Below are positions 37,844-64,000 of a DNA stretch of 64,000 nt, piece after piece. A program made the position numbers and the translations under genes. The stretch's first letter is position 1; every line of letters starts with the position of its first letter. Origin of the DNA: an uncultured Candidatus Micrarchaeota archaeon (GTDB lineage: Archaea > Micrarchaeota > Micrarchaeia > Anstonellales > Bilamarchaeaceae). The stretch lies in contig CAWDBH010000010.1 in NCBI GenBank assembly GCA_963800555.1, positions 24,765 through 88,764 of the forward strand, given 5' to 3'. The notes under the pieces were generated by a model. The model had not been told where the DNA came from, made no database searches, and worked only from the letters and a program-made list of their open reading frames with translations.

Positions 37844-38632
37844 CTATCTCCTCATCCGCCGCATCATGCGCATACGCTGGTTAGGGGCCGCCTCTTCATG
37901 GCGTATCTCGTGGCCGGTCAATTCGATGAACGCCTCTTCCAATGAGCTGGTCTTCGTTTTCTCCTGCAGCTCCTTGGAAGTCCCTTGCGCTATGATCTTG
38001 CCGTGGTCTATCACCGCTATCACATTAGCGACCTTGTCGGCTTCATCCATGTAATGCGTCGTGAGAAATATCGTAGTCCCCTCATCCTGGTTCATCTGAA
38101 CGATGTATTTCCATATGTGGTTTCTCGTTTGCGGATCCAAGCCGACCGTAGGTTCGTCCAGGAACAGGACTTTCGGATGATGCAGCAATCCGCGTGCTAT
38201 CTCCAGCCTGCGTTTCATCCCTCCTGAGAAGGTTTTCACAAGGTCGTTTTTCCTGTCCCACAGCTCCACGAAACCGAGCAGCTGCTCTATCCTCTTCTTC
38301 ATCTCATTCGTCGGTATATGGTACAATACCCCGTGGATCTCCATGTTCTCGTAAGCGGTCAGGTCATCATCCAAAGAAGGGTCCTGGAACACGATCCCGA
38401 AGTTTTTCCGGACCTCGTTGGGGTCTTTCATCACATCATGCCCATTGAGAGAGATCTTTCCGCTCGTGGGCGTAAGGACAGTGGTGAGCATCTTGATCGT
38501 GGTGCTTTTCCCGGCCCCATTCGGTCCAAGGAAAGCGAATATGCTCCCGTGCTCGACTTTGAAGGATATGTTATCCACTGCGGTGAACTCGCCGAATTTC
38601 TTGGAAAGATTTTCGACTTCGATAGCTAACAT
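37844..38632 (-). CDS. ABC transporter ATP-binding protein (ABC-2/DrrA-like)
   Basis: Walker A GPNGAGKST, signature FSGGMKRRL and Walker B VLFLDEPT. Its stop lies 1 nt from the permease start. Confidence 0.9.
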   Translation of the reverse strand: MLAIEVENLSKKFGEFTAVDNISFKVEHGSIFAFLGPNGAGKSTTIKMLTTVLTPTSGKISLNGHDVMKDPNEVRKNFGIVFQDPSLDDDLTAYENMEIHGVLYHIPTNEMKKRIEQLLGFVELWDRKNDLVKTFSGGMKRRLEIARGLLHHPKVLFLDEPTVGLDPQTRNHIWKYIVQMNQDEGTTIFLTTHYMDEADKVANVIAVIDHGKIIAQGTSKELQEKTKTSSLEEAFIELTGHEIRHEEAAPNQRMRMMRRMRR

Positions 38633-38772
38633 AAGGATCGCTCATCCTGCGAGTTTGCATGATGCGTCAACATATATAACCCAGTATGGCTGGAAAAATA
38701 TCGCTTAAGAATCCTCAATTTCGAAAGATGATTTTTGGCAAAGCTAATAAATATTTACGGTTTCTTTCAGTC

Positions 38773-39157
38773 ATGGCGGAGCTGAAAACGAAGCTGGTTG
38801 ATGCCTTCGGATTGGGGATCGGTTTCTGGTTGATGGGGTTTATCGCATCATTGATACTTTTCTTCATACATGCCAGCCAACCTCCTCGGGTGGGTCTTGT
38901 TCGTCATCTTCACCCCCATTTGCATATACATATCATTTCTGAGATTCAGGAAAAGAACCGAAGATATATCGTATTATCTGGCTATCGCAGCGATCTGGGC
39001 CGTCATCGCCATGGTACTGGATTACATATTCATCGTGACCGCATTCCATTCCCTGGGATACTACAAGCTCGATGTCTTCGTATACTACGCGACGACTTTC
39101 ATCATCCCGCTATTAATCGGATGGAAGTACGGGATGAATCAAAGCGAGAAAAAATAG
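38773..39157 (+). CDS. small multi-TM membrane protein (possibly frameshifted near 38858-38869; otherwise 38870..39157 alone)
   Basis: ORF 38870..39157 encodes 3 TM segments. An upstream frame encodes MAELKTKLVDAFGLGIGFWLMGFIASLIL, which could be a first TM if one T of the T4 run is spurious. Confidence 0.4.
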
Positions 39158-39423
39158 ACGCAGAGAGCAAACGCTCTGATCATATCTGAGGACGCACACC
39201 TGCTTTTGCCCTCTTTGTCGAGGTGAATTTTGCATTAATTCTATATAACTGCTGCCATGAAAGAGGTTAGACGAGCGCCTAAGCTCAATTAATAAAACCA
39301 CGATAGGAGCAGACTTCTCCTAACTAGGGCGGGTATAGATGCTTAAACAAACTGTAACTAAGCGTACTTATCCTGCTGTTTGCACTTGGGCACTGAACTT
39401 TAAAGAAAATGATTACTTTGCAG

Positions 39424-40068
39424 TTATTTGTTCTTAAATACTAAAACGTGGCTATGATCGCCTTCCGTCGAGCAATAAATCATTTCTTGTTCGAAAAATA
39501 ATATTTTCGAAATTTCTCTCCCGATGTCCCAAGCTAAAGGAGTCATAGGGCGGCCCTCACCAATCGTATTTGACACTTCGATTATGATTGTGGCATTTTT
39601 TTTCATTACCTTTTTGATCTGCCGATATATTCTTCCAATATCTTTCAAATATTTTGAGTAACTCCCAGTTTTTGTATAATTTGTAAATGGATCTTCATTA
39701 TCAAAGTATCTCATATAGGGCGGAGAAGTTATGGAAAAGTCGAACTTTGGCAAGTTATACGATCCGAGTTTTAGGGAATTGCCATGAATGATTTTACAGG
39801 GCTCTTTAATCCTGTCGTTAATGTATTCATACTGGCTTTCATCGTATTCTATCCCAAGAACTGTTCGTCCCAGTCGTTGGCCTACAAACAACGTTGTACC
39901 AAAACCAGCAAAAGGATCTAAGATTCTATCCCCTCTTTTTGTAAATTTAAGGACGAACATTTCAACAAATTCTTCCGTATACCGAATATCCGTATCTCCA
40001 TTGAATTTAATTTTTTTCAGTTTGCTAGAGATTAAAAACCAGGAATTTTCCATGTGTAGTTCTTTCAT
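39424..40068 (-). CDS. small N4/N6-type (SPPY) methyltransferase with motif I preceding motif IV
   Basis: ILDPFAGFGTTLFVGQRLGRTVLGIEYDE (motif I region as in N6_N4_Mtase), followed by IIHGNSLKLGSYNLPKFDFSITSPPY (motif IV). 214 aa. Confidence 0.7.
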   Translation of the reverse strand: MKELHMENSWFLISSKLKKIKFNGDTDIRYTEEFVEMFVLKFTKRGDRILDPFAGFGTTLFVGQRLGRTVLGIEYDESQYEYINDRIKEPCKIIHGNSLKLGSYNLPKFDFSITSPPYMRYFDNEDPFTNYTKTGSYSKYLKDIGRIYRQIKKVMKKNATIIIEVSNTIGEGRPMTPLAWDIGREISKILFFEQEMIYCSTEGDHSHVLVFKNK

Positions 40069-40333
40069 GTTTACTAATTAGAATATGTCATTTTAATGTT
40101 CTCCTAACCTTCCCACATTTTCAAGTTAATATCTAGGAAAATTTCTGATGGCGAGTACAATACGCTAGATGTCTACCAATCAGAATAACTTGCAGGGAGC
40201 AAAAGATCCTGCTCAGCTTCAGGTCCTCAACCACGGAAAATCATGTCGATATCAGCAAATCAATGCCGATTTCCTCAAAAGCGTGAGGGTATTAACGAGG
40301 AGAGGTTTATAATCGCTGCCTCGACTTATTTCG

Positions 40334-41681
40334 CTAAACCAGCAACAGGAAAAGCCAAGCAGGCACATAAAGGATCTTTTTCCCGTCCTTCTGGATTTCC
40401 TTAAAATCATCCCGAGTCACAATTACCCCAAAAGAGAGGGACTTGAGGTTCATGAATTTGATAAGCGAACTGGCGTCCTCAGCGTGGATGGAAGACTGGA
40501 ATTTGACTTCTATCGGAATGATGTTGCCTTCTACATCTGCCACCAAGTCCACTTCATCCTTCTGGGGACTGCGCCAAAAAGTTATTCTGTCAGATAATTG
40601 GCTTACGTGACCAAAAACAATGGTTTCAATATATTTTCCAGCTTGTTCGTGCTGCTCCAGTATGTGATTCGGGGATCTTGCGAGTGCCAATGTAATGCTC
40701 GGATGTGCGATATGGATTTTTTTGTTTTTGCGCAACTGTTTTGTAAAGCTTTTTGATGTGTTATATAATAGGCTAAGCGCAAACGAGTGTTCTAAATAAA
40801 ACAGGTAAGTTCTTGCTGTCCTGTAATTAACCTTAAGAAGTTCTGCCAGATTCTTGACTTCGAGCAGATTTGACGTTTCTCTTGCGCAGTATTCGAGCAT
40901 GGAATACAGAACGTCCTTTCGAGTTACTTTGAATGCAGATGGGATGTCTTCGTATATTATTTTATCAGTCACCGAGTTACGTATGTATGAGTAAATTATT
41001 TCGCGATCATTCTCTTTTGCGATTTCTGGGAACGCCCCGTGTTCCATATACTTTTCCAGCAGATCCAGCATCTGGGGTTTTTTGTGTAGGTTCTTTTCGT
41101 AGATCGCTTTCAGTTTGGAATATTCCAGAATACCCCTCTCCATTTTCAGATCATTTAATTCTAGGAACTCTCTGAAACTCAGAACAGGCACGTGAAAATC
41201 ATATATCCTGCCTGCCAGACTTTCCTTTGATTTCTTTATATTAAGTGAAGCGGATCCGGAAACAATAAATTTGAGGTCTTCATTAGTATCATAGTATCTC
41301 TTGACGATATCTTGCCAATATGGAACTTTTTGTATTTCATCAAGAAAGAGGTACTTTCTGCCATCTTTAGCCAGCACTTTTAGATAATACTCTATCACAT
41401 CCTCAAGGATATCGGGATTCTGGGTTATAAGGTCGTCAAAGAGAAAATATACGATATTTTCTGGTTTTGTGCCGTTTTCAAGTAGCTCGGACATAGTCTG
41501 ACGCATCAGGACGGTTTTACCAACCCTTCGCAAACCGACGATTGCTAGAATCTGTTTGGTCTTCATATACTTCTCGATTTTAGAATATACATGGCGATGG
41601 TAGACTCGGTACGTTAGGTTTGTTGCCTTCCCACCAGGGATTGAAGTACCTCAACATTGCGATATATTTGTCTGCGATCAT
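40334..41681 (-). CDS. AAA+ ATPase (AAA_14/DUF4143-type); N-terminal ~35 codons are in another frame
   Basis: ILAIVGLRRVGKT (Walker A) and YLFLDEIQ (Walker B). Upstream, ATG 41681 encodes MIADKYIAMLRYFNPWWEGNKP, the NPWW N-terminus typical of this family. It is out of frame by one base with RVYHRHVYSKIEKYMKTKQ. Confidence 0.75.
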
Positions 41682-41842
41682 AAGAACACCTTAATATTAG
41701 TTGTATTCTAATGCAACTAATTTATAAAGTTAGTTGTAGTGAAAGTATACTTTAAAACCGATTGAACTACAACTTTTTGATGTGATTCTGATGCTCCCGA
41801 TTATATCTACTCGTCGATATTCTTTAGTTCCATATGCTCCCC

Positions 41843-42445
41843 TCAAATAAACTCATTCAGCTTCCGGTTCTCATGCTCCAGCAATTGTCTGGTAATCCGA
41901 CTCATGCGATATCCGTATTCGAGGGCATTCCTGGTCCACTCCTGTTCTGGTTTTCTTGAGCTCACGAAGCCGAACAATCCACTCAGATATTTCCTGTCCA
42001 TCCTAAATGAGGCCGTTTTCCCAAGGCCGAGAAACGCAATGATATTCGTATCTCCGCTACCCTTACCTCGCATTTCCCGCGTAATCTGGTTTATCCTGCC
42101 TTGGTTGAATCTGGATTCCCGGTATAAATACACGACTTCCTGGATGATGCAACCTTGGCCCGCATGCATTATGAGATTGCACATCGGACAGATAGTTTCG
42201 AGATTGCCTTTATCGTTGTTATTCGGGTTTCCATCAATGTGATGAACGATCTGCCAATGCATAGCGCGAAAATTGCAGTATTGGCATGTGTAATCATCTC
42301 GTTTCAGTATCTGTTGCCTGATCCGCCGCCACATTTCATTGGCGGTGCGATCCGGGCAGTTAGTTCTCCATCTATTCGAGTCGGCAAACGACGGATAAAG
42401 TATTTTTACGTTTCCAATCAAATATCTCACCACAACCTGAACCAA
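41843..42445 (-). CDS. HNH endonuclease with unknown C-terminal domain
   Basis: RDDYTCQYCNF...HHIDGNPNNNDKGNLETICPMCNLIMH (HNH with two CxxC pairs). A ~110-aa C-terminal region is unassigned. An alternative start is MWRRIRQQ (42334). Confidence 0.75.
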   Translation of the reverse strand: MVQVVVRYLIGNVKILYPSFADSNRWRTNCPDRTANEMWRRIRQQILKRDDYTCQYCNFRAMHWQIVHHIDGNPNNNDKGNLETICPMCNLIMHAGQGCIIQEVVYLYRESRFNQGRINQITREMRGKGSGDTNIIAFLGLGKTASFRMDRKYLSGLFGFVSSRKPEQEWTRNALEYGYRMSRITRQLLEHENRKLNEFI

Positions 42446-42822
42446 GGATTATGCTCCATGGAATTGATACAAGTTTCCAAAGGCATGTCGACTTCTATAG
42501 GCATCCAATTTCCAGTATGTCTCATGGCGAATAATTGATAGTGATCGTTTCCGATATGTTCGAGTCTTGCAAACTTTTCAATAAAATACGGGGATATTGC
42601 TCGCGGACCTTGAGAGTTGTATTTTGCGCATAGATAAAACCTGTCTTTTGTCCATTCGTAATATACATCAGCGACATAGTTTTGATTTTTCGGGGGCTTT
42701 TTTGTTATGTTGGCGCTTCGAAGTTTTTCAACATGTGATTCTGCCCATTTATTGATTTGCAATTTAACGTTTTCAGGCATTGGTTGTTTTGAGGGTTTAA
42801 AGACCCAGATTCCGCTTCGCAT
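42427..42822 (-). CDS. DUF3024-like protein
   Basis: VYYEWTKDRFYLCAKY...FARLEHIGNDHYQLFAMRHTGNWMPIE resembles the DUF3024 pattern as I recall it. Its 3' end overlaps the longest HNH ORF by 19 nt. Confidence 0.45.
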   Translation of the reverse strand: MRSGIWVFKPSKQPMPENVKLQINKWAESHVEKLRSANITKKPPKNQNYVADVYYEWTKDRFYLCAKYNSQGPRAISPYFIEKFARLEHIGNDHYQLFAMRHTGNWMPIEVDMPLETCINSMEHNPWFRLW

Positions 42823-44456: not shown

Positions 44457-44572
44457 GGGCCCGTAGCTCAGCCAGGCTAGAGCGTTCGACTGATAGGAAC
44501 TTTTTGCGAAAAAGTTTCATCAAAAACTTTCTGGAAATCGAAAGGTCATGAGTTCAAATCTCATCGGGCCCA
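44457..44572 (+). tRNA. tRNA-Ile(GAU) with 41-nt intron at 37/38
   Basis: GGGCCCG TA GCTC AGCCAGGCTA GAGC G TTCGA CTGATA[41 nt]A TCGAA AGGTC ATGAG TTCAAAT CTCAT CGGGCCC A. The intron contains the perfect hairpin AACTTTTT-GCG-AAAAAGTT. Confidence 0.85.
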
Positions 44573-54052: not shown

Positions 54053-55062
54053 ATGATAACCGATAAACCTTTTCCCATGGAAATGGCTTCTTATCTCACC
54101 CCGAATATCCAAGATGTGGAACGCATCATGGAAGATGCCCTCGCCAATGAGGACGGGAGGGTCTACGGGATGCTGATCCCGTTCCTCAAGAGGGGAGGCA
54201 AGCGGATAAGGCCGATGCTGGCGATCGCAACCTGCGGGGCGGTCGGAGGCGACCGAAAGGCTGCGGTGGAGCCCGCCTCTGTCATAGAGCTTTTCCATAA
54301 TTTCACGCTCATACATGACGATATCGAAGACGATTCTCGTTACAGGCGTGGTGAGCCGACGCTTCAGATAACCCACGGCATACCCATCGCCCTCAATTCG
54401 GGGGATGCGCTCTATACGCTGCTATGGAGGAAGCTGATATCGATCAAGATGCCCCCCCGCGATTGCTCCGGATGCAGGCCCTTTATGTGGATGCATTCAA
54501 ACGCGTGGTGGACGGGCAAGGGCTTGAGCTCTCCTGGATACAAGAAGGCAGATTCGATGTCAGCGAAGAGGAGTATTTCCAGATGATCGGGGGGAAGACA
54601 TCCGCGCTCATGGGTCTTTCGTGCGAGATGGGCGCCATAATGGGAGGCGCTACGCGGAAGGAGCAGAGAGCGATGCGCGAATTCGGGGAATGCGTCGGCA
54701 CGGCATTCCAGATACAGGACGATGTCCTCAACGTGTCCGGCGAATTCGAGAAATACAAGAAAGAGATCGGCGGCGATATCTCGGAAGGGAAACGAACGCT
54801 GATGGTGGTGTACTGCCTGGCCCACGCATCCGCGCAGGAGAAGGAGAGGCTGATATCCATCCTGTCTTCGCATTCGAGGGAACCTAAAGACATAAGCGAA
54901 GCGATATCCTACCTTAACAAGTACGGCGCGGTCGGATATGCCCGTACCCGCGCAGCGAGCTTGGTCAGTAAGGCGAAATCATTGCTCGATAGATTGCCTG
55001 ATTCGGAGGATAAGGCCGCCTTGCTGTCGCTCGCGGATTATATCGTGAATCGCGAGAAATAA
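54053..55062 (+). pseudogene. idsA: geranylgeranyl diphosphate synthase (polyprenyl synthetase), frameshift in the C7 run 54452-54458 (sequence error or pseudogene)
   Basis: FARM LIHDDIEDD lies in ORF 54053..54586 and SARM FQIQDDVLN in ORF 54424..55062. The frames join at atgCCCCCCCgcg. A C8 (or C5) run would give ...KMPPPRLLRMQALYVDAFKRVVDGQGLEL. Confidence 0.9.
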
Positions 55063-55064
55063 AA

Positions 55065-57200
55065 ATGAAAAAGTATTTAAATCACGCGTCAGGATATCAT
55101 CTAATGACCTCCCTCAAACCGTTCGTCCTGCTAATGCTAGCGTTCGGAATAATCAGCGCTTTCAGCGTTTCGGATTATCTTCATCCAACTGAGGCGAAAG
55201 CGGTCGTGCAATACACCAATTTCACTTTGGGAGGAACACCCTACTCCATCATAAGCATCAATGGAGCAGACACGTTCCTTCTCAGCGGAGGGAATCCTGT
55301 TTCTAAAAAATCGGATATCGAAGCGATATTGAACTCCTACTACTCCACGTTCTATCTCCCGTCGTCAGCGGATCTAGATAACCTCGAAAACCTCCTCCAG
55401 TTGTATAACGCCAGCAGGAACGACGGCGGGTTATTCAAAGGCGAAGAGGAATACGCCTGCCGTAACATCCTATTCATAGATGGCAAGCAGAAATCTCCGA
55501 CAGGCCAGACGATAGTCTGCCGCAACGAAAGCGATGATATCCTCTGCCAGGACGCGGCTAATCTTATGTTCGAGTACCTCATGAACGCCCCGTCAGGTCC
55601 TCCTGTAAGTTCTGCCGGTGATTTGACCCCTATGATCGAGCAGTTCGGATTCGCTAGCTATGGCACCGACGCTATCCTGTCGAACGACGTGTCTCTGCTG
55701 GGAGCGGCCCAGAGCGATCCTACGCAGACGCCTGCCGCATTGACTTACCTTCAGAATACGACCCCGCAGCTCTCTATTTTCGGATCGCAGATGGAAAGCA
55801 GTATCTTCACCATGAATCCAAACGGCACGACCTGGGGGCTCTGCCCCGATATATCTTTCAACCACGCTGCACTCACCACCATCAATTCATTAGTCACGAA
55901 CCTGAGCGCCAAGATAGCGCCATACCAGAACCTGGATTCCGTCTCCACGTCAATCGCGAACAATACCGCAACCCGGCTCGCGTATTTCAACGACAAAACC
56001 CAGGCCGTGATGTATAACAATGAATTCGCCAGCCTAAACACAAGCGGCGCCGCAGCGATCTCGCTCGGTCAATCCACCGTAGTGCACGTAAGCGACGGTG
56101 TTCTATCATCCGATCTGGACAATCTCACGGCCCTCCAGTCTGATATCCCGCAGGACATATACACGAACGATTTCACCAATTTAGCTTCGGAGCTATCGCA
56201 ATACGGCAATCTGACGATCGTGGTCCGAAACCTATCGTCTACAGATATGGATTCTTACAACCGGGCCCTAAATGCCAAGACTTCGGTCAATTCGATGCTC
56301 CTGATGATCGAGACATCGGATTCAGATTTCGTCACATTGAATACGCTTGGTGCCCTCCAGAACGAGACGCAGGATCTCGATGCCCGTTTCCGGGACGGCC
56401 TTACCCCCGCGGAGTTCGATGCCCTGGCTTCCAACTACACCGCCATAGAAAGCAGCGCCACCCCATTGCTGAACAACAGCGAACAGCCGCCTGCGACGAG
56501 GCTCTTGACCTTGTTCCGGGGCTTCACGAGAAGGGTTAATGTAGGGATCGACAATCTGGCTTTGCAAACCAATATCACCACACAGAGCATTCCGAAAGGG
56601 TTCATACCTCTCGGAGCGTTCTCAGCACTGGTTTTCCTGTCATTCTCATCAATCGCAATAGTGGTCTTCCTCTTCATCTTCTCCACATTGAGGTTCAGCG
56701 TGCCCAAGACCGGTCAAATACTAGCGGTGGCGTTCCTATGCGTTATGATCGCGTTGGCGAGCTTCACCGTCTTCATGTTCATTTTCCTCGGTAAAACTTC
56801 GACCGATGCGAACCTGCAGGAGTTCATGGGGGATTTCAGCTCCAAGAACAGCACCGCCATCTTCCTTGATCTTACGAACACATCATCCGTCTCGGACGCG
56901 AGCGCCATGCAATCCTGCGCGAACATCCTGGCGGATTCGCTTGAGGCTCAGAATAAGACGTGGTCCATGTACACCATCTCCCAGACCGCATGCACCCTCA
57001 CGCCAGAAAAAGGCGCTAACTCCAGCATGGCCGTCGGCGATTGCATGAACCTGAGCGAAAACGCGCCATCCTCATTCGTCCTGGATTACTCTCCGACCGA
57101 CCAAGTCCCCAAATTCACGATCATCTACCAGGATAAGGCTCTAATCAGTGGTAATTCGGATTATTATAACTCATGCCCGCTGGTGGCATTCTTCAACTGA
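55065..57200 (+). CDS. large surface-exposed membrane protein, rich in N-glycosylation sequons
   Basis: N-terminal TM, a ~480-aa Ser/Thr/Asn-rich ectodomain with about 20 NxS/T sequons by eye, then two TM segments and a further domain. Confidence 0.55.
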   Translation: MKKYLNHASGYHLMTSLKPFVLLMLAFGIISAFSVSDYLHPTEAKAVVQYTNFTLGGTPYSIISINGADTFLLSGGNPVSKKSDIEAILNSYYSTFYLPSSADLDNLENLLQLYNASRNDGGLFKGEEEYACRNILFIDGKQKSPTGQTIVCRNESDDILCQDAANLMFEYLMNAPSGPPVSSAGDLTPMIEQFGFASYGTDAILSNDVSLLGAAQSDPTQTPAALTYLQNTTPQLSIFGSQMESSIFTMNPNGTTWGLCPDISFNHAALTTINSLVTNLSAKIAPYQNLDSVSTSIANNTATRLAYFNDKTQAVMYNNEFASLNTSGAAAISLGQSTVVHVSDGVLSSDLDNLTALQSDIPQDIYTNDFTNLASELSQYGNLTIVVRNLSSTDMDSYNRALNAKTSVNSMLLMIETSDSDFVTLNTLGALQNETQDLDARFRDGLTPAEFDALASNYTAIESSATPLLNNSEQPPATRLLTLFRGFTRRVNVGIDNLALQTNITTQSIPKGFIPLGAFSALVFLSFSSIAIVVFLFIFSTLRFSVPKTGQILAVAFLCVMIALASFTVFMFIFLGKTSTDANLQEFMGDFSSKNSTAIFLDLTNTSSVSDASAMQSCANILADSLEAQNKTWSMYTISQTACTLTPEKGANSSMAVGDCMNLSENAPSSFVLDYSPTDQVPKFTIIYQDKALISGNSDYYNSCPLVAFFN

Positions 57201-57841
57201 TGTCTATGGCAAAAAAAGGAACCACTAAAGCGAAATCCGCCTCGTCCAATAAACCGGTGCGGTCTGGCAGCGATAATCCATCCGAAGGCTCTGATATCCA
57301 GAAGAAACCCGAAGAATATTCGCTGGATATCCCGGAGGCTCAGGAACCGAAGAAGGCGGGGCAAAAGAAGCCCTCATCGGATCGGTGGAAATATGTCGCG
57401 GTGTTCATCCTCGCGGTATTGGTCATAATCTTCGCGGTCTTTTACTTCATATCTTCATCAACCGACTTTGTGCCGGGCCAGAGCGTTACGCCCGCCCAAT
57501 TCCAGAATGAACTCGTCTCTGCCGGAAAAGTATTTATCTTGATGGACGTGCGCGGAGCGCAGAATGCCAGTGTCAGGGGTAGCATCATGCAATGCGGGGT
57601 CGACTTCGCTGAGAGCACATATCTTGGAAGCAAGAATGTCAGTCCCCTCTCTTTCGATAATAAGGAATGCACCGATGCGAACGGGACCCGTCCGCTCTCC
57701 GAATGCGCATCCGAGCTCAAGGACGGCATCACTATAGACATACGCGCGGGCCAGCCCGCGGTCAGGTACTTCTCAAACGGGATGCTCGTGACCGTCGGTC
57801 CGGAATACACGCTCGGCAGCTGTGGGATAAACTCGTCCTGA
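57200..57841 (+). CDS. membrane-anchored hypothetical protein
   Basis: ATG overlaps the upstream stop (TGATG). Lys/Ser-rich N-terminus, a single TM (YVAVFILAVLVIIFAVFYFI) and a Cys-containing ectodomain. Confidence 0.5.
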   Translation: MSMAKKGTTKAKSASSNKPVRSGSDNPSEGSDIQKKPEEYSLDIPEAQEPKKAGQKKPSSDRWKYVAVFILAVLVIIFAVFYFISSSTDFVPGQSVTPAQFQNELVSAGKVFILMDVRGAQNASVRGSIMQCGVDFAESTYLGSKNVSPLSFDNKECTDANGTRPLSECASELKDGITIDIRAGQPAVRYFSNGMLVTVGPEYTLGSCGINSS

Positions 57842-59797: not shown

Positions 59798-61003
59798 TCA
59801 GAACTGATGCCCCTTCATATGCGGGGTCACGGCGCATATCGGCACTGCTGGTTTGTATTCCACGTGCCAATCCACGCCCAGAGCCGGATTGAGCATCCTC
59901 AGGGACCTGCCATCGAAAGCGGTCGCCGTTATAAGATCGGGATCTATATTGTTAAGGGCGACGCGCGCTTCTTTGATGTTCATAGCGAAATCCAAGCTCG
60001 TGGCCACCGTAACGACATGGCCGTTGCCATCGGCATGCCCTTCGGTCCTTGTGCCAAGCACATGCTTCCTGCGATAATCATCAGAACCTTTGTCTCCTGT
60101 AGACATGATGACCTCACCGGTCTCAGTGAGATCCACGGTTATGTCGAATGTCTGGTTCGGAGGCACTCTGAAGAGGTATTTCGGGCTGTCAGGGGTATTC
60201 GGTTTCAACCTCGCGTCCACGCAGCAGATGCCGCCTACTTCAAGGAGAGAGACTCCTGGATCGAGGACGGTCCTCAGGTCGAGTGGATCGTAGATGAACG
60301 CACTATGAGCGTAGTGCGCATTAAGATCTATCCCTTTCTGAACCACCCTTTCAAGGCCTCTTGAGAGCTGGAGTTTCAGTGCATAGAGCTTGGAGTGGGC
60401 TCCAAACAATTTATCTTCGGTCCAGTCCACCCTGTTCATCGGGAAATACTGTATCTCTTTGCAGTTCGAGCATATGGCGACCAGCACCGTAAGGTTAAAT
60501 CTCTTTATCAAATCGGAGAATTCGGGATCATCCAGTATCTTCTGTGCCTGGAATTTGGCGTTTTCGAATTCGGCGGCTGGAGAATCCAGGCCGTGCACAT
60601 CAGGCGAAATCCGATTGAGCAGGTCCAATACCGGCTGGGTTTCATCAAGCTTTTTGCCTTTCGCGGCGGCTTTTATGGCCGCTTTCTTAGCGCCCACCGC
60701 GCCGCATGGAATGATGCCGCCATGACCCAATACCACGAATGCGCCACCCGGGCGGATGGACCTCAGCATCCTGCCGACCTCTTCGCGGGATTCCTTCTCA
60801 TCCAGGCCTATAGCCTGACCGGCGATGCGGTTGAAGCTCACTGCCGTGAGGGTCGAAGGATACGTCCTTTCCTGGAAATGGATGAAGCCTTCGACAAGAA
60901 GGCACGCAGAATCGAAAGGGGAGATGGTCTTCGCGTTCTTCACCGCTGCGACGACTTCGGGTTTTCTGGTTTCTCTCCATTTTGTCAGGTTGGGCTGAGC
61001 CAT
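59798..61003 (-). CDS. two-domain beta-carbonic-anhydrase-like protein with split or degenerate zinc ligands
   Basis: The N-half has VVLGHGGIIPCGAV but SFNRIA where CxDxR is expected. The C-half has ICCVDARL (CxDxR) but no HxxC. The by-eye alignment to the adjacent CA is colinear. Confidence 0.45.
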   Translation of the reverse strand: MAQPNLTKWRETRKPEVVAAVKNAKTISPFDSACLLVEGFIHFQERTYPSTLTAVSFNRIAGQAIGLDEKESREEVGRMLRSIRPGGAFVVLGHGGIIPCGAVGAKKAAIKAAAKGKKLDETQPVLDLLNRISPDVHGLDSPAAEFENAKFQAQKILDDPEFSDLIKRFNLTVLVAICSNCKEIQYFPMNRVDWTEDKLFGAHSKLYALKLQLSRGLERVVQKGIDLNAHYAHSAFIYDPLDLRTVLDPGVSLLEVGGICCVDARLKPNTPDSPKYLFRVPPNQTFDITVDLTETGEVIMSTGDKGSDDYRRKHVLGTRTEGHADGNGHVVTVATSLDFAMNIKEARVALNNIDPDLITATAFDGRSLRMLNPALGVDWHVEYKPAVPICAVTPHMKGHQF

Positions 61004-61141: not shown

Positions 61142-61507
61142 TTATTTTTCCCTGAGCTCTTGGACAGATGCGTTAAGAATCCTGCTGCTAGCTAGGCTGA
61201 GCCTCAGCCTGATGATGGTTTCATTCCTGGGGTCAATGCATTTCCCGCTAAAAAACCTGCCAACTGTAGCGCGCTCCGCGACTACCGACCCATCGCCGGA
61301 CCTAGTTATTTCGACTGTGTATCCACTCGTTTCAGTTCGTTCCTTAAACTCTAAATTATAATTCCCTACGCGTTCAGGGCTCGGAAGACCAAGCGGATGA
61401 TCGTTCAATGGATTTCTTGATTGGAAATCCAAAACCTTGCCGGGGCTAGTAGTGAAGGTGGTGACGTACGCTGTTCTCTTTCCAATACTTTTAGTGTGGG
61501 GGTTCAT
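61142..61507 (-). CDS. hypothetical protein
   Basis: 121-aa ORF with no motif. Confidence 0.4.
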   Translation of the reverse strand: MNPHTKSIGKRTAYVTTFTTSPGKVLDFQSRNPLNDHPLGLPSPERVGNYNLEFKERTETSGYTVEITRSGDGSVVAERATVGRFFSGKCIDPRNETIIRLRLSLASSRILNASVQELREK

Positions 61508-61621: not shown

Positions 61622-64000
61622 ATGGTCTATCTGCCCATGGCAAGAATGCTGGCGAAGAGTCTTGGGGGTGGCGTGGTCAGATGCCTGGCATGCAACCGCT
61701 ATTGCGTAATAAAAGAGGGGAATGCCGGTTTCTGCGGAGTCAGGGCCAATGTCAAGGGGAAGCTCACTTTAACCGTGCATAGCAAACCCGCAGCGGTGTG
61801 GGTGGATCCGATCGAGAAGAAGCCGTTCTTCCATTTCCTCCCAGGCAGCACGAGCTTCTCGCTCGGCACGTACGGATGCAATTTTGCATGCGACTTCTGT
61901 TTCGTCCCGGATACCAATATTGTAAACGACGATTCCATAAAACGGCTCGATGAGGCGTTCGAAGAATGCACGAAGAAAATCCAGAAACCGGATGGCGAAA
62001 TCGGGTTCGCGAACGGCAGAAAAACGATAACTGCCAAAGGAATAAGAAAAAATATTGATAAGGTGTTCATGCACCATTATGATGGCGATATGCTTACAAT
62101 CAAGCCTAGGCACGCACCGTCGGTGACATGCACACCTGAGCACCGTTTCTTTGTTTACAAGAATGCTGTTGTCGGGAAAGTACCTGCCGCAGATCTGAAG
62201 ATCGGAGATCTTTTGCTGGTTCCTAAGCTCAAGCCAAAGAATGAGGATACGGTGATTGACGCAAGGAAAATCCTCGAGAATCACATCTCCAGGATAAAGA
62301 AAGCAAGAAAGCTGGACAAAAATGGTCTGAATAAGCTGCTCAAGCTGAAAAAATCTGGGAAGACTTCTAGAGAGATAGGTAAGATACTTCGTATGCATCC
62401 AGCCTATTTGAGGAAACTTCTCGGCAATTTGAAAAGAACTGGGATAACTGAGGATACATTCTCCCACGACAATATCATCATAGAAGATGGGGCCCGTCTC
62501 CGCTACAAGATGGAAAAAGGGAATGGTATACCATCATTCCTCGATGTAAACGAGGAATTCGCAGAGTTGCTCGGTTACTATTGTGCCGAAGGAAATACCG
62601 CGAAACCACGTGCAAGACCTAGTTCATATAACGTCGTTTTCTCTTATGGTAAGCATGAAAAACATCTCATAGAAAGAACTGCGGTCCTACTGAATAAAAT
62701 ATTCAGAGTCAAGCCTAAATTACTCCGCAGGAGGACTACGATCACGGTAGAAGTTAGCGGGTCTTCGCTTGGTATATTGTTCAAGGAACTCTGCGGAGAA
62801 AGAGCGAAACACAAAAAGGTGCCGTCGCAAGTCGCGCGTTCGAGAGTGGCTGTGATTAACTCGTTCATGAAAGCCTTTCTGGCAGGAGACGGCTGCATCA
62901 TGAAGGACAAGATAGCATTCAACAGCGTCTCGAAGAAACTGGCTCTGGGGTTATACAATCTCCTCCTCCTTCTCGGTTACCTTCCCAGTTTCTACGAATG
63001 GGTGCCTCCCAAGAAAAAGATGATCGAGGGAAGAATCGTCAACCAGTCCACGTTATACTATGTAAAACTGCAAGCCGAGAAATTCAGGAATGGTTTCCTT
63101 GGAAACGATTGCAAACCTCGGAAAAAAAGCGAAGAAAACTTGAAATTCAAGGAAACCGATAGCCACTGGTTAGTCCCGATATTCAAGATAGAAAAAAGCC
63201 GTTACCATGGTCCGGTTTATAACTGCGAAGTTGACGGGGATCATTCTTATCTGGCTAATTTCATAGCTGTATGCAACTGCCAGAATTGGGACCTCAGCCA
63301 GGCACCCGCGGAACTGCGAGCGAAGAACCCGTCCAAATGGAAGGAGTACTTCAAGAACCTCGTGGATAAGGTGGAAGCCTGGCCGCCGGAACGCGTTGTG
63401 GAAGAAGCAATCCGGAGCGGATGCCGTTCAATCGCGTTCACCTACAGCGAACCCACGATATTCACGGAATACGCGCTCGATGTTATGAAGCTAGCTCGGA
63501 AAAAAGGCCTGAAGGGAGTATATGTCACGAACGGATACGAGTCGTCCGAATGCTGGAAGGCGATCAAAGGTCACATCGATGCGGCGAACATAGATCTCAA
63601 GGCCTATAACCAGAGATTCTACACGGAACTGTGCAAAACCCCGAATTTCGAAAAGATCAAAGAGTCCATAATACTCGCCAAAAAACTCGGCATCTGGGTG
63701 GAAGTGACCACTCTCATAGTGCCTGGTTGGAACGATAATGAGAACGAGCTCAACGAAGAGGCCAAGTGGCTGACATCCGTGGACCCTCTGATGCCTTGGC
63801 ATGTGACCGCATTCCATCCCGACTACAAGATGCGCGATACCGAGGAAACGACCCCGGAAAGCCTCGTTAGGGCGCGCGAGATAGCCAAGATGGCCGGTCT
63901 CAAATACGTCTATTGCGGTAACGTCTCCCTGGCATATTCGGAATACGAGACTACGGCCTGCCATAAATGCGGGAAAACGCTGGTTTCGAGATACGGATAC
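61622..64000 (+). CDS. PflA/AmrS-like radical SAM enzyme containing an intein (3' end outside window)
   Basis: The frame is open from ATG 61622 to the window end and is not in the ORF track because it has no stop. Exteins: VRCLACNRYCVIKEGNAGFCGVR...DPIEKKPFFHFLPGSTSFSLGTYGCNFACDF + CQNWDLSQ...IAFTYSEPTIF...VTNGY...TACHKCGKTL. Confidence 0.85.
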   Translation, partial: MVYLPMARMLAKSLGGGVVRCLACNRYCVIKEGNAGFCGVRANVKGKLTLTVHSKPAAVWVDPIEKKPFFHFLPGSTSFSLGTYGCNFACDFCFVPDTNIVNDDSIKRLDEAFEECTKKIQKPDGEIGFANGRKTITAKGIRKNIDKVFMHHYDGDMLTIKPRHAPSVTCTPEHRFFVYKNAVVGKVPAADLKIGDLLLVPKLKPKNEDTVIDARKILENHISRIKKARKLDKNGLNKLLKLKKSGKTSREIGKILRMHPAYLRKLLGNLKRTGITEDTFSHDNIIIEDGARLRYKMEKGNGIPSFLDVNEEFAELLGYYCAEGNTAKPRARPSSYNVVFSYGKHEKHLIERTAVLLNKIFRVKPKLLRRRTTITVEVSGSSLGILFKELCGERAKHKKVPSQVARSRVAVINSFMKAFLAGDGCIMKDKIAFNSVSKKLALGLYNLLLLLGYLPSFYEWVPPKKKMIEGRIVNQSTLYYVKLQAEKFRNGFLGNDCKPRKKSEENLKFKETDSHWLVPIFKIEKSRYHGPVYNCEVDGDHSYLANFIAVCNCQNWDLSQAPAELRAKNPSKWKEYFKNLVDKVEAWPPERVVEEAIRSGCRSIAFTYSEPTIFTEYALDVMKLARKKGLKGVYVTNGYESSECWKAIKGHIDAANIDLKAYNQRFYTELCKTPNFEKIKESIILAKKLGIWVEVTTLIVPGWNDNENELNEEAKWLTSVDPLMPWHVTAFHPDYKMRDTEETTPESLVRAREIAKMAGLKYVYCGNVSLAYSEYETTACHKCGKTLVSRYGY
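61898..63277 (+). mobile_element. intein with LAGLIDADG homing-endonuclease domain (460 codons)
   Basis: Starts CFVPDTNIV (block A), then TPEHRFFV (block B), LLGYYCAEGN and FLAGDGCI (LAGLIDADG motifs) and GPVYNCEVDGDHSYLAN (block F). It ends FIAVCN, followed by Cys. Translation was checked codon by codon. Confidence 0.85.

What the first reader, a model, noticed from the sequence alone, without database searches (positions are those of the whole stretch)
61898..63277. Intein inserted inside the CX3CX2C iron-sulfur motif of a radical SAM enzyme, in an ORF missing from the ORF track
The plus-strand frame from ATG 61622 runs open to the window end, so it has no stop codon and does not appear in the ORF track. 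The 92 N-terminal residues end in GCNFACDF. The sequence after 63277 starts CQNWDLSQ. Joined, they give a canonical radical SAM CNFACDFCQNW in a PflA/AmrS-like protein. Between them are 460 codons with intein blocks A (CFVPDTNIV), B (TPEH), F (VYNCEVDGDHSYLAN) and G (FIAVCN|C), plus two LAGLIDADG motifs and an HTH-like segment (SGKTSREIGKILRMHPAYLRKLL). The +1 splicing nucleophile would be the third cluster-ligating Cys, so 4Fe-4S assembly should depend on splicing. The penultimate residue is Cys rather than the usual His. The intein DNA is more AT-rich than the exteins (one line each by hand: ~45% versus ~55% GC). I do not know whether this insertion site has been catalogued.
Basis: partly seen in the sequence, partly recalled or inferred. 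Interest (0 to 1): 0.85.

Follow-up and report, generated by a model that had tools for sequence, protein, structure and literature searches.

The report
Intein inside radical SAM cysteine motif
A self-splicing mobile protein element (an intein carrying its own homing endonuclease) sits directly in front of the third iron-sulfur-binding cysteine of an archaeal radical SAM enzyme. It is real, but it belongs to a widespread intein family already present in public genomes, and an intein of this kind has been studied in Pyrococcus.

Summary
An ORF open from 61622 to the window end encodes an AmmeMemoRadiSam radical SAM enzyme (AmrS, TIGR04337). It is interrupted by an exact 1380-nt, 460-codon in-frame insert (61898-63277) between GCNFACDF and CQNW. 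The insert is a canonical class-1 intein with a LAGLIDADG homing endonuclease, supported by Pfam and TIGR hits above cut-off. An AlphaFold model (pLDDT 92) matches PI-PkoII, Tli/Pho VMA, PI-PfuI and PI-SceI. The in-silico spliced product aligns without a gap to intein-free homologues of 77-91% identity. A 91%-identical relative supplies the empty site at DNA level.

It is not unique. At least 81 public proteins and 47 GTDB species-representative loci, archaeal and bacterial, carry homologous inteins. Every junction that could be read (81 proteins, 41 loci) is CX3CX2|C. Hosts include AmrS, PflX-like, B12-type and SPASM-type radical SAM enzymes. NCBI has a curated model for an intein-containing Tes. 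Reviews describe the Pyrococcus abyssi MoaA intein, whose Cys-3/Cys1 disulfide acts as a redox trap; that spacing fits this site.

The non-His penultimate residue is typical of the family (His in 10 of 82). I classify it as a new member of a known kind. Splicing-dependent or redox/cluster-gated activation is plausible but untested.

The parts
61622..61897 (+). N-extein of the AmrS radical SAM gene (aa 1-92). It ends in GCNFACDF. The real start may be ATG 61637 or 61646.
   Evidence: Translation. TIGR04337 hit on the spliced product, residues 14-333. Homologues begin at MARML... or MLAK....
61877..61897 (+). CNFACDF: the first two cluster cysteines (C86, and C90 = Cys-3) plus two spacer residues. 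Together with intein Cys1 they form a CX3CX2C and a CxxC in the precursor.
   Evidence: The motif is invariant in intein-free homologues.
61898..63277 (+). Intein: 460 aa, Cys1 to Asn460, class 1, with a LAGLIDADG homing endonuclease.
   Evidence: PF14890 47.9 bits, PF14528 38.1 bits, TIGR01445 29.4 bits. The insertion is exactly 1380 nt relative to the empty allele L001. AlphaFold2 model with pLDDT 92. Foldseek top hits are PI-PkoII, Tli/Pho VMA inteins, PI-PfuI and PI-SceI.
61898..61936 (+). Intein block A (CFVPDTNIVNDDS), with the Cys1 nucleophile at 61898-61900.
   Evidence: Cys1 is present in 82 of 82 family members. TIGR01445 covers residues 1-86.
62117..62155 (+). Intein block B (TCTPEH): Thr79 and His82 of the TxxH motif.
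   Evidence: Thr79 and His82 are present in 82 of 82 family members.
62318..62440 (+). Three-helix, HTH-like insert (intein aa 141-181) between the N-terminal Hint part and the endonuclease domain. It is probably an accessory DNA-binding module.
   Evidence: The model shows helices 141-152, 157-164 and 168-181. The G-x-[TS]-[ST]-[RK]-x-I...P-x-[YF]-x-R segment is conserved across most of the family. Pfam HTH hits are weak (HTH_Crp_2 E=0.16, Rrf2 E=0.24).
62531..63097 (+). LAGLIDADG endonuclease domain. Motif 1 is at 62552-62596 (…LLGYYCAEG, Glu231). Lys306 is at 62813-62815. Motif 2 is at 62861-62899 (…FLAGDG, Asp331).
   Evidence: PF14528. Family conservation: Glu231 75/80, Lys306 76/80, Asp331 76/80. 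The domain matches I-DmoI with TM about 0.7 of target.
63209..63277 (+). Intein blocks F and G (GPVYNCEVDGDHSYLANFIAVCN). His449, penultimate Cys459 and terminal Asn460 lie here.
   Evidence: TIGR01443 covers residues 439-457 at 14.5 bits, just under its 15.6 cut-off. His449 is present in 73 of 82. Asn460 is in all 82, but a terminal Asn was a selection criterion. The penultimate position is variable.
63278..64000 (+). C-extein of AmrS. It starts with Cys+1, the third cluster Cys (CQNWDLSQ...). The window end cuts off about 24 codons before the stop.
   Evidence: homologues extend about 24 residues further. TIGR04337 match.

Best explanation
The window comes from an archaeal chromosome, probably a Micrarchaeota (DPANN) archaeon. 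It carries the gene for the AmmeMemoRadiSam-system radical SAM enzyme (AmrS).

This gene has been invaded by a full-length class-1 intein. The intein has a Hint splicing domain, an HTH-like insert and a LAGLIDADG homing endonuclease. It sits exactly between the second spacer residue and the third cysteine of the CX3CX2C [4Fe-4S]/SAM motif.

The gene is translated as a precursor of about 815 aa. The inferred splicing pathway is the standard one:
1. N-S acyl shift at Cys1.
2. Trans-thioesterification to Cys+1.
3. Cyclisation of Asn460.
4. S-N shift.

This would excise the 460-aa intein and restore GCNFACDF-CQNW, giving a normal AmrS of about 355 aa.

The excised intein is inferred to be an active endonuclease. 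It would cut intein-free amrS alleles at the motif-coding DNA and copy itself in (homing). That accounts for the sporadic distribution and the mismatch between intein and extein similarity.

The intein belongs to a large family that occupies this same motif position in several radical SAM subfamilies in both archaea and bacteria.

Shown here: the sequence anatomy, the fold, the exact insertion, the empty alleles and the family distribution. Inferred: actual splicing, endonuclease activity, and any regulatory role.
For: - Profile hits are above curated cut-offs for the intein N-terminal region, the splicing domain and LAGLIDADG. TIGR04337 gives 322.8 bits on the spliced product as one colinear stretch.
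- The spliced product aligns with no gap across GCNFACDF|CQNWDLSQ to intein-free homologues of 91, 83, 79 and 77% identity.
- blastn against the contig of the 91% homologue (L001) shows the two flanks abutting at one Cys codon, so the insert is exactly 1380 nt.
- L001 has a Memo gene immediately downstream. L002 and L003 have Memo and AMMECR1 nearby.
- The AlphaFold2 model has pLDDT 92 and pTM 0.88. Foldseek hits are PI-PkoII (1e-25), TliVMA, PhoVMA, PI-PfuI and PI-SceI, with I-DmoI matching the endonuclease domain.
- Catalytic residues are conserved in 82 family members: Cys1, Thr79 and His82 in 82/82; Glu231 75/80; Lys306 76/80; Asp331 76/80. Asn460 is present in all 82, but a terminal Asn was a selection criterion.
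- 48 homologous intein-bearing proteins were found, and 70 representatives at E<1e-30. All 81 proteins with both junctions resolved have CxxxCxx|C...N|C. There are 47 GTDB loci, and all 41 checked have the same junction.
- Intein and extein identity disagree. L006 is 65% identical in the intein but 45% in the extein, while the closest exteins have no intein.
- The intein's GC content is 8-11 points below its exteins.
Against: - No experiment: splicing and DNA cleavage are inferred from conserved residues only.
- The penultimate residue is Cys rather than His. In many inteins the His assists Asn cyclisation. Most of this family lacks it, so this is weak evidence against activity.
- TIGR01443 (intein C-terminal region) scores 14.5 bits, just below its 15.6 cut-off.
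- The gene is cut by the window end, so its 3' end and the expected Memo/AMMECR1 neighbours are not visible. None is found elsewhere in the window.
- The GC drop is not exceptional for this window: lowest 6%.
Confidence: 0.88

Rival explanations
1. The intein acts as a conditional switch, not only as a selfish element. In the precursor, Cys-3 (C90) and intein Cys1 form a CxxC. Together with C86 they reconstitute a CX3CX2C. A disulfide, a bound metal or an Fe-S cluster at these thiols would block the first splicing step. The oxygen-labile radical SAM enzyme would then be released only under reducing, cluster-competent conditions.
For: The sequence shows C86-x3-C90-x2-C93 (Cys1), followed 460 residues later by Cys+1. 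Reviews report that the P. abyssi MoaA intein has a native Cys-3/Cys1 disulfide that controls splicing, and interpret it as protecting an oxygen-sensitive enzyme (PMC3922620; PMC10663303). The arrangement is retained in 81 of 81 family members with both junctions resolved and across several radical SAM subfamilies.
Against: The arrangement follows automatically when a Cys1 intein inserts before the third Cys, so its conservation needs no selection for regulation. The conserved endonuclease residues and the patchy distribution fit a plainly mobile element. Nothing here measures redox or cluster dependence.
Confidence: 0.3
2. The insert is a decaying or splicing-dead intein, and the interrupted amrS is effectively a pseudogene.
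For: The penultimate His is missing. The C-terminal splicing-region model scores just below its cut-off.
Against: All 460 codons are open. Cys1, the TxxH motif, His449, Asn460 and Cys+1 are intact and conserved family-wide. The exteins are 91% identical to an intein-free homologue with no lesions. The model folds with high confidence. The family's predominant lack of a penultimate His, alongside intact ORFs in 47 species, argues that it splices without it.
Confidence: 0.05
3. The 460 residues are a fixed, non-mobile accessory domain of this AmrS lineage, or an assembly chimera.
For: None beyond the fact that many MAGs show the same architecture.
Against: The four closest extein homologues (77-91% identity) lack the insert, and the empty site is exact. 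The insert has an intein fold and intein motifs. The same architecture occurs independently in 47 species representatives from many assemblies, which rules out a chimera.
Confidence: 0.02

Closest known systems
Pyrococcus abyssi MoaA intein (redox-trap intein; Callahan et al. 2011, as described in PMC3922620 and PMC10663303)
   Same: An intein in an oxygen-sensitive enzyme annotated as MoaA, which is a radical SAM protein. It has a Cys1 nucleophile and an N-extein Cys at -3, giving a CxxC. That spacing equals the second-to-third Cys spacing of CX3CX2C, which is exactly what is seen here (C90-D-F-C93).
   Different: The host protein differs (MoaA/Tes-like versus AmrS), and so does the organism (Thermococcales versus probably Micrarchaeota). 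I could not retrieve the Pab sequence, so the identity of the site is inferred from the Cys-3/Cys1 description and from NF045703. The redox behaviour of the window's intein is untested.
NCBIfam NF045703, 'tetraether lipid synthase Tes, intein-containing' (curated exception model)
   Same: It is the best NCBIfam hit of the intein (E = 1e-18). One HMM stretch runs from the N-extein motif (residue 83) through the intein into the C-extein (residue 633), matching model positions 146-675. The same pattern appears for PflX-like and B12-type hosts. The intein therefore occupies the homologous position of the radical SAM core.
   Different: The score is 66-78 bits against a family cut-off of 1700, so the window protein is not Tes. 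Only the intein and the immediate radical SAM core are shared.
PI-PkoII, Tli/Pho VMA inteins, PI-PfuI, PI-SceI (solved LAGLIDADG inteins)
   Same: The overall architecture is the same: a Hint domain plus a LAGLIDADG endonuclease domain. Foldseek E-values range from 1e-25 to 1e-11. phmmer gives 7e-15 to PI-PkoII.
   Different: Sequence identity is only 11-17%. The hosts differ (DNA polymerase, V-ATPase, RNR). The window's intein has its own three-helix HTH-like insert in place of their stirrup or DRR modules.
Mycobacterium tuberculosis SufB intein (an intein in the Fe-S assembly machinery, reported as stress-sensitive; PMC8891592 abstract)
   Same: It links protein splicing to iron-sulfur metabolism. 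Related LAGLIDADG inteins in SufB and NifU-like proteins appeared.
   Different: It sits in a scaffold protein, not inside a cluster-ligating motif of a client enzyme. It is a different intein lineage and a different site.

Membership tests
Intein (class 1, canonical splicing) | Hint-fold splicing domain | tested here: met
   PF14890 47.9 bits (GA 35.8). TIGR01445 29.4 bits (cut-off 24.5). AlphaFold2 model with pLDDT 92 matches solved inteins.
Intein (class 1, canonical splicing) | Cys/Ser at position 1, block B TxxH, C-terminal Asn, and Cys/Ser/Thr at +1 | tested here: met
   Cys1, Thr79/His82, Asn460 and Cys+1 are present. Cys1, Thr79 and His82 are invariant in 82 family members; Asn460 was a selection criterion.
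Intein (class 1, canonical splicing) | Penultimate His (common, but not obligatory) | tested here: not met
   The residue is Cys459. Across the family this position is G22, S20, A19, H10, K5, C4, R1, E1. This is not a defining feature, since many active inteins lack it (general knowledge).
Intein (class 1, canonical splicing) | In-frame insertion in a conserved host protein, a colinear spliced product, and intein-free alleles in relatives | tested here: met
Intein (class 1, canonical splicing) | Demonstrated protein splicing | not testable with these tools
   Requires expression of the precursor, or proteomics.
LAGLIDADG homing endonuclease | Two LAGLIDADG motifs with terminal acidic residues, and the alpha-beta-beta-alpha-beta-beta-alpha fold | tested here: met
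   PF14528 38.1 bits. Glu231 and Asp331 are conserved in 75/80 and 76/80 members. I-DmoI matches with TM about 0.7 of target.
LAGLIDADG homing endonuclease | Site-specific cleavage of the intein-free allele | not testable with these tools
   The candidate substrate is the empty site in L001.
AmmeMemoRadiSam system radical SAM enzyme (AmrS, TIGR04337) | Score above the curated cut-off, with an intact CX3CX2C after splicing | tested here: met
   322.8 bits against a cut-off of 220 for the spliced product, although about 24 C-terminal residues are missing. The motif CNFACDFC is restored.
AmmeMemoRadiSam system radical SAM enzyme (AmrS, TIGR04337) | Genomic association with Memo-like (AmrB) and AMMECR1 (AmrA) genes | tested here: inconclusive
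   The window ends inside the gene, and no Memo or AMMECR1 is found in the 61 kb upstream. In the syntenic contig L001 a Memo gene follows directly. L002 and L003 have Memo and AMMECR1.
Radical-SAM-motif inteins of the Pab MoaA / Tes type | Insertion immediately before the third Cys of CX3CX2C (Cys-3 / Cys1 CxxC) | tested here: met
   Met directly for the window and for 81 relatives. For Pab MoaA and Tes themselves it is only inferred, from PMC3922620 and from NF045703 alignment coordinates.
Radical-SAM-motif inteins of the Pab MoaA / Tes type | Redox-controlled splicing through a Cys-3/Cys1 disulfide | not testable with these tools
   Sequence prerequisites are present. The behaviour has not been measured.

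The most novel reading that the evidence does not exclude
The CX3CX2C loop of radical SAM enzymes is a superfamily-wide intein hotspot, occupied by one ancient intein lineage. That lineage has moved between AmrS, PflX-like, B12-type, SPASM-type and Tes enzymes in both prokaryotic domains, and in some proteins a second mini-intein sits three residues away. Because intein Cys1 mimics the third ligand, the precursor would bind (or fail to bind) a cluster, metal or disulfide in a way that gates splicing. Activation of these oxygen-labile enzymes would then depend on redox state or Fe-S supply. That would make this a general post-translational control layer for radical SAM enzymes, rather than a curiosity of one Pyrococcus protein.
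Probability: 0.3. Interest if true: 0.6.

Novelty: new member of a known kind. Interest (0 to 1): 0.4.

Why it matters
For annotation, the gene should be called as one amrS ORF with an intein, not as a fragment or a 'LAGLIDADG endonuclease'. Several database relatives are mis-split or mis-named.

Biologically, it adds AmrS to the radical SAM hosts that carry an intein in the cluster-binding loop. AmrS is widespread but has no known function. Set beside its relatives, this example shows that one motif position is used across several radical SAM subfamilies and across archaea and bacteria.

This gives a simple natural system for asking whether Fe-S cluster or redox state gates protein splicing. 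The precursor offers two alternative 'third cysteines', Cys1 and Cys+1. It also offers a family of endonucleases that target radical SAM motif DNA.

It does not open a new category. Inteins in catalytic motifs, Cys-rich redox-sensitive inteins and an intein in a radical SAM protein are all on record.

Tried and rejected
- **Non-mobile conserved domain.** Rejected. The nearest exteins lack the insert, and the empty site is exact.
- **Penultimate Cys as a special feature.** Rejected. This position is variable across the family.
- **GC drop as strong evidence of recent transfer.** Only moderate. The intein is in the lowest 6% of windows, and a lower-GC island exists elsewhere in the window.
- **Direct confirmation of the Pab MoaA / Tes site.** This failed on several routes:
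  - Callahan 2011 is not held.
  - No paper in the library joins 'intein' with 'tetraether' or 'Tes' in a relevant way.
  - Nine candidate proteins of about 1,000-1,150 aa were not Tes.
  - A profile search seeded with B12-type inteins returned SufB, NifU and other hosts but no Tes.
  - The same-site statement therefore rests on NF045703 alignment coordinates and on two reviews.
- **Novikova et al. 2016 survey.** The main text does not mention radical SAM, and no supplements are held.
- **Other literature searches.** Searches for intein with radical SAM, AMMECR1 or DPANN found nothing about AmrS inteins.
- **GTDB scan.** It was repeated with 5 sequences.
- **Rest of the window.** No second intein and no Memo or AMMECR1.
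- **Cross-family transfer.** Nearest-neighbour identities show that inteins mostly group by host family. Two PflX-like inteins are closest to AmrS inteins, but at only about 41% identity, so recent jumps are not shown.
Full report
**1. The observation**

The + strand frame from ATG 61622 stays open for 793 codons to the last base of the window. It is absent from the ORF list only because ORFs that run off an end are not listed.

- Residues 1-92 end in GCNFACDF.
- Residues 93-552 (nt 61898-63277, exactly 460 codons) run from CFVPDTNIV to FIAVCN.
- Residue 553 begins CQNWDLSQ.
- GC content is 55.4% (N-extein), 44.5% (intein) and 52.8% (C-extein), against 52.7% for the window. The intein is in the lowest 6% of 1380-nt windows. 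That is low but not unique, since a stretch near 39 kb reaches 38%.

**2. What the insert is**

- Pfam gives Intein_splicing at 47.9 bits (cut-off 35.8) and LAGLIDADG_3 at 38.1 bits (cut-off 22.5).
- NCBIfam gives intein_Nterm at 29.4 bits (cut-off 24.5) and intein_Cterm at 14.5 bits, just under its 15.6 cut-off.
- An AlphaFold2 model built on 15 family members has mean pLDDT 92 and pTM 0.88. It shows a beta-rich Hint domain made from the two ends, a three-helix insert (aa 141-181) and an alpha/beta endonuclease domain.
- Foldseek against the PDB returns full-length LAGLIDADG inteins first: PI-PkoII (1e-25), Tli and Pho VMA inteins, PI-PfuI and PI-SceI. I-DmoI matches the endonuclease domain and mini-inteins match the Hint domain. 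phmmer against PDB sequences agrees.
- In an alignment of 82 family members, Cys1, Thr79 and His82 are invariant. Asn460 is present in all, though a terminal Asn was a selection criterion. The endonuclease residues Glu231, Lys306 and Asp331 are kept in 75-76 of 80.

This is the pattern of an element whose splicing and homing functions are both under selection.

**3. What the host is**

- Removing the insert gives a 333-aa product, truncated by the window end. It scores 322.8 bits on TIGR04337, the AmmeMemoRadiSam radical SAM enzyme (cut-off 220), in one stretch. The precursor matches in two stretches.
- The closest homologues in a 5.8-billion-protein collection are intein-free proteins of about 350 aa at 91, 83, 79 and 77% identity, many of them from Micrarchaeota MAGs.
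- The spliced product aligns to them with no gap across GCNFACDF|CQNWDLSQ.
- The contig of the 91% homologue (L001) supplies the empty site. By blastn the two flanks of the window meet at a single Cys codon, so the insertion is exactly 1380 nt.
- L001 has the same upstream gene as the window and a Memo gene directly downstream. Two other relatives have Memo plus AMMECR1 nearby.
- Those partner genes would lie beyond the window end. None is found in the 61 kb upstream.
- Window genes such as aRF1, aEF-2, DUF63 and DUF2070 show that the window is archaeal.

**4. Distribution**

- The intein alone finds 48 public proteins at 30-68% identity. Nearly all are 'radical SAM + LAGLIDADG + intein' proteins of about 800 aa. 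Some are already auto-annotated, for example 'pyruvate-formate lyase-activating enzyme/intein/homing endonuclease'.
- An exhaustive phmmer search over 1.84 billion cluster representatives gives 70 hits below 1e-30.
- In all 81 proteins where both junctions could be located, the context is CxxxCxx|C...N|C.
- Hosts include AmrS, PflX-like enzymes, B12-binding HpnJ/BchE-like enzymes and a SPASM-type maturase-like protein.
- A scan of one genome per GTDB species returns 47 loci, and all 41 that were checked have the same junction. They come from Micrarchaeota (61-69% identity, sharing the penultimate Cys), Woesearchaeota, Promethearchaeota, Thermoproteota, Nitrososphaerota and Bathyarchaeota. Bacterial loci come from Patescibacteria, Acidobacteriota, Chloroflexi, Planctomycetes, Omnitrophota and Clostridia.
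- Intein and extein similarity are decoupled. L006 has a 65%-identical intein in a 45%-identical extein, while the four nearest exteins carry no intein. This is the sporadic pattern expected of homing with gain and loss.
- Inteins mostly group by host family. Hints of AmrS/PflX-like exchange rest on only about 41% identity.

**5. Mechanism**

- Shown: the anatomy, the fold, the exact insertion and the empty alleles.
- Inferred from established intein chemistry: an N-S acyl shift at Cys1, trans-thioesterification to Cys+1, Asn460 cyclisation, and an S-N shift. This restores the CX3CX2C motif.
- Also inferred: the freed LAGLIDADG enzyme, probably helped by the HTH-like insert, cuts intein-free alleles in the motif-coding DNA and homes.
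Because the intein starts with Cys, the precursor still shows C86-x3-C90-x2-C93 (Cys1) and a C90-x-x-C93 CxxC. The precursor is therefore not simply 'missing' the third ligand. A disulfide, a metal or a cluster engaging Cys1 would block step 1 of splicing.
- Reviews describe just this kind of Cys-3/Cys1 disulfide redox trap in the Pyrococcus abyssi MoaA intein (PMC3922620; PMC10663303).
- Whether the window's intein behaves this way is untested. I give the regulatory reading about 0.3.

**6. Comparison with what is known**

- The nearest NCBIfam hit of the intein is NF045703, a curated 'exception' model for intein-containing tetraether lipid synthase Tes, which is a radical SAM enzyme.
- A single HMM stretch runs from the N-extein motif through the intein into the C-extein (residues 83-633 to model positions 146-675). 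The same is true for PflX-like and B12-type hosts. The Tes intein therefore occupies the homologous position.
- I could not obtain a Tes or Pab MoaA sequence to read the junction directly. That link is an inference.
- No paper in the held library mentions an intein in AmrS/AMMECR1-system proteins, or surveys radical SAM inteins.
- The penultimate Cys is not exceptional. His occupies that position in only 10 of 82 members.

**7. Verdict**

- It is a new member of a known kind, not a new kind. The intein class, the endonuclease type, insertion in a catalytic motif, an intein in a radical SAM enzyme and a Cys-3/Cys1 arrangement are all on record. Dozens of database sequences already carry this very allele.
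- What may be under-described is the breadth. One intein lineage sits at one motif position across several radical SAM subfamilies and both prokaryotic domains. There are mini-intein derivatives (P0265, P0274). There are also proteins with two inteins inside the eight-residue motif (P0191, P0213).
- Interest: 0.4.

Noticed in passing
P0191 (aa 98-280) and P0213, relatives: Two inteins sit inside one CX3CX2C motif. The layout is GCNWL | 170-aa mini-intein (C...VVHN) | CRY | large LAGLIDADG intein (C...AVAN) | CQNF. The middle extein is only three residues long. Pfam sees Hint_2 as well as Intein_splicing and LAGLIDADG_3.
   Followed up: partly
P0265 (intein 176 aa) and P0274 (intein 207 aa), relatives: These are mini-intein derivatives at the same AmrS site. 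They have lost the endonuclease domain, which fits the decay stage of the homing cycle.
   Followed up: partly
window 44457-44572 (+): Rfam finds a tRNA (59.2 bits) that spans 116 nt, so it probably contains an archaeal intron. ARAGORN reported no tRNA anywhere in the window.
   Followed up: no
window 54053-55062 (+): A polyprenyl synthetase gene is split over two overlapping frames. ORF 54053-54586 matches profile positions 8-101 and ORF 54424-55062 matches 105-250. This indicates a frameshift near 54.4-54.6 kb: a sequencing error, a pseudogene, or recoding.
   Followed up: partly
window ~38000-42500: A low-GC island (down to 38% against the window's 52.7%) carries a DNA methylase fragment (39424-40068, -), an AAA_14/DUF4143 ATPase (40334-41566, -) and a weak HNH-like ORF (41843-42445, -). 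It may be a mobile or restriction-modification island.
   Followed up: partly
proteins P0313-P0355: A profile of the B12-type radical SAM inteins also retrieves LAGLIDADG inteins in other iron-sulfur-related proteins, mostly from candidate-phyla bacteria and DPANN archaea. These include SufB and NifU-like scaffolds and a CoA-substrate-specific enzyme activase.
   Followed up: no
window 55065-57200 (+), 57173-57841 (+), 59798-61003 (-), 61142-61507 (-): Several sizeable ORFs next to amrS have no Pfam hit, including one of 711 aa. The 121-aa ORF just upstream of amrS is conserved and syntenic in L001.
   Followed up: partly
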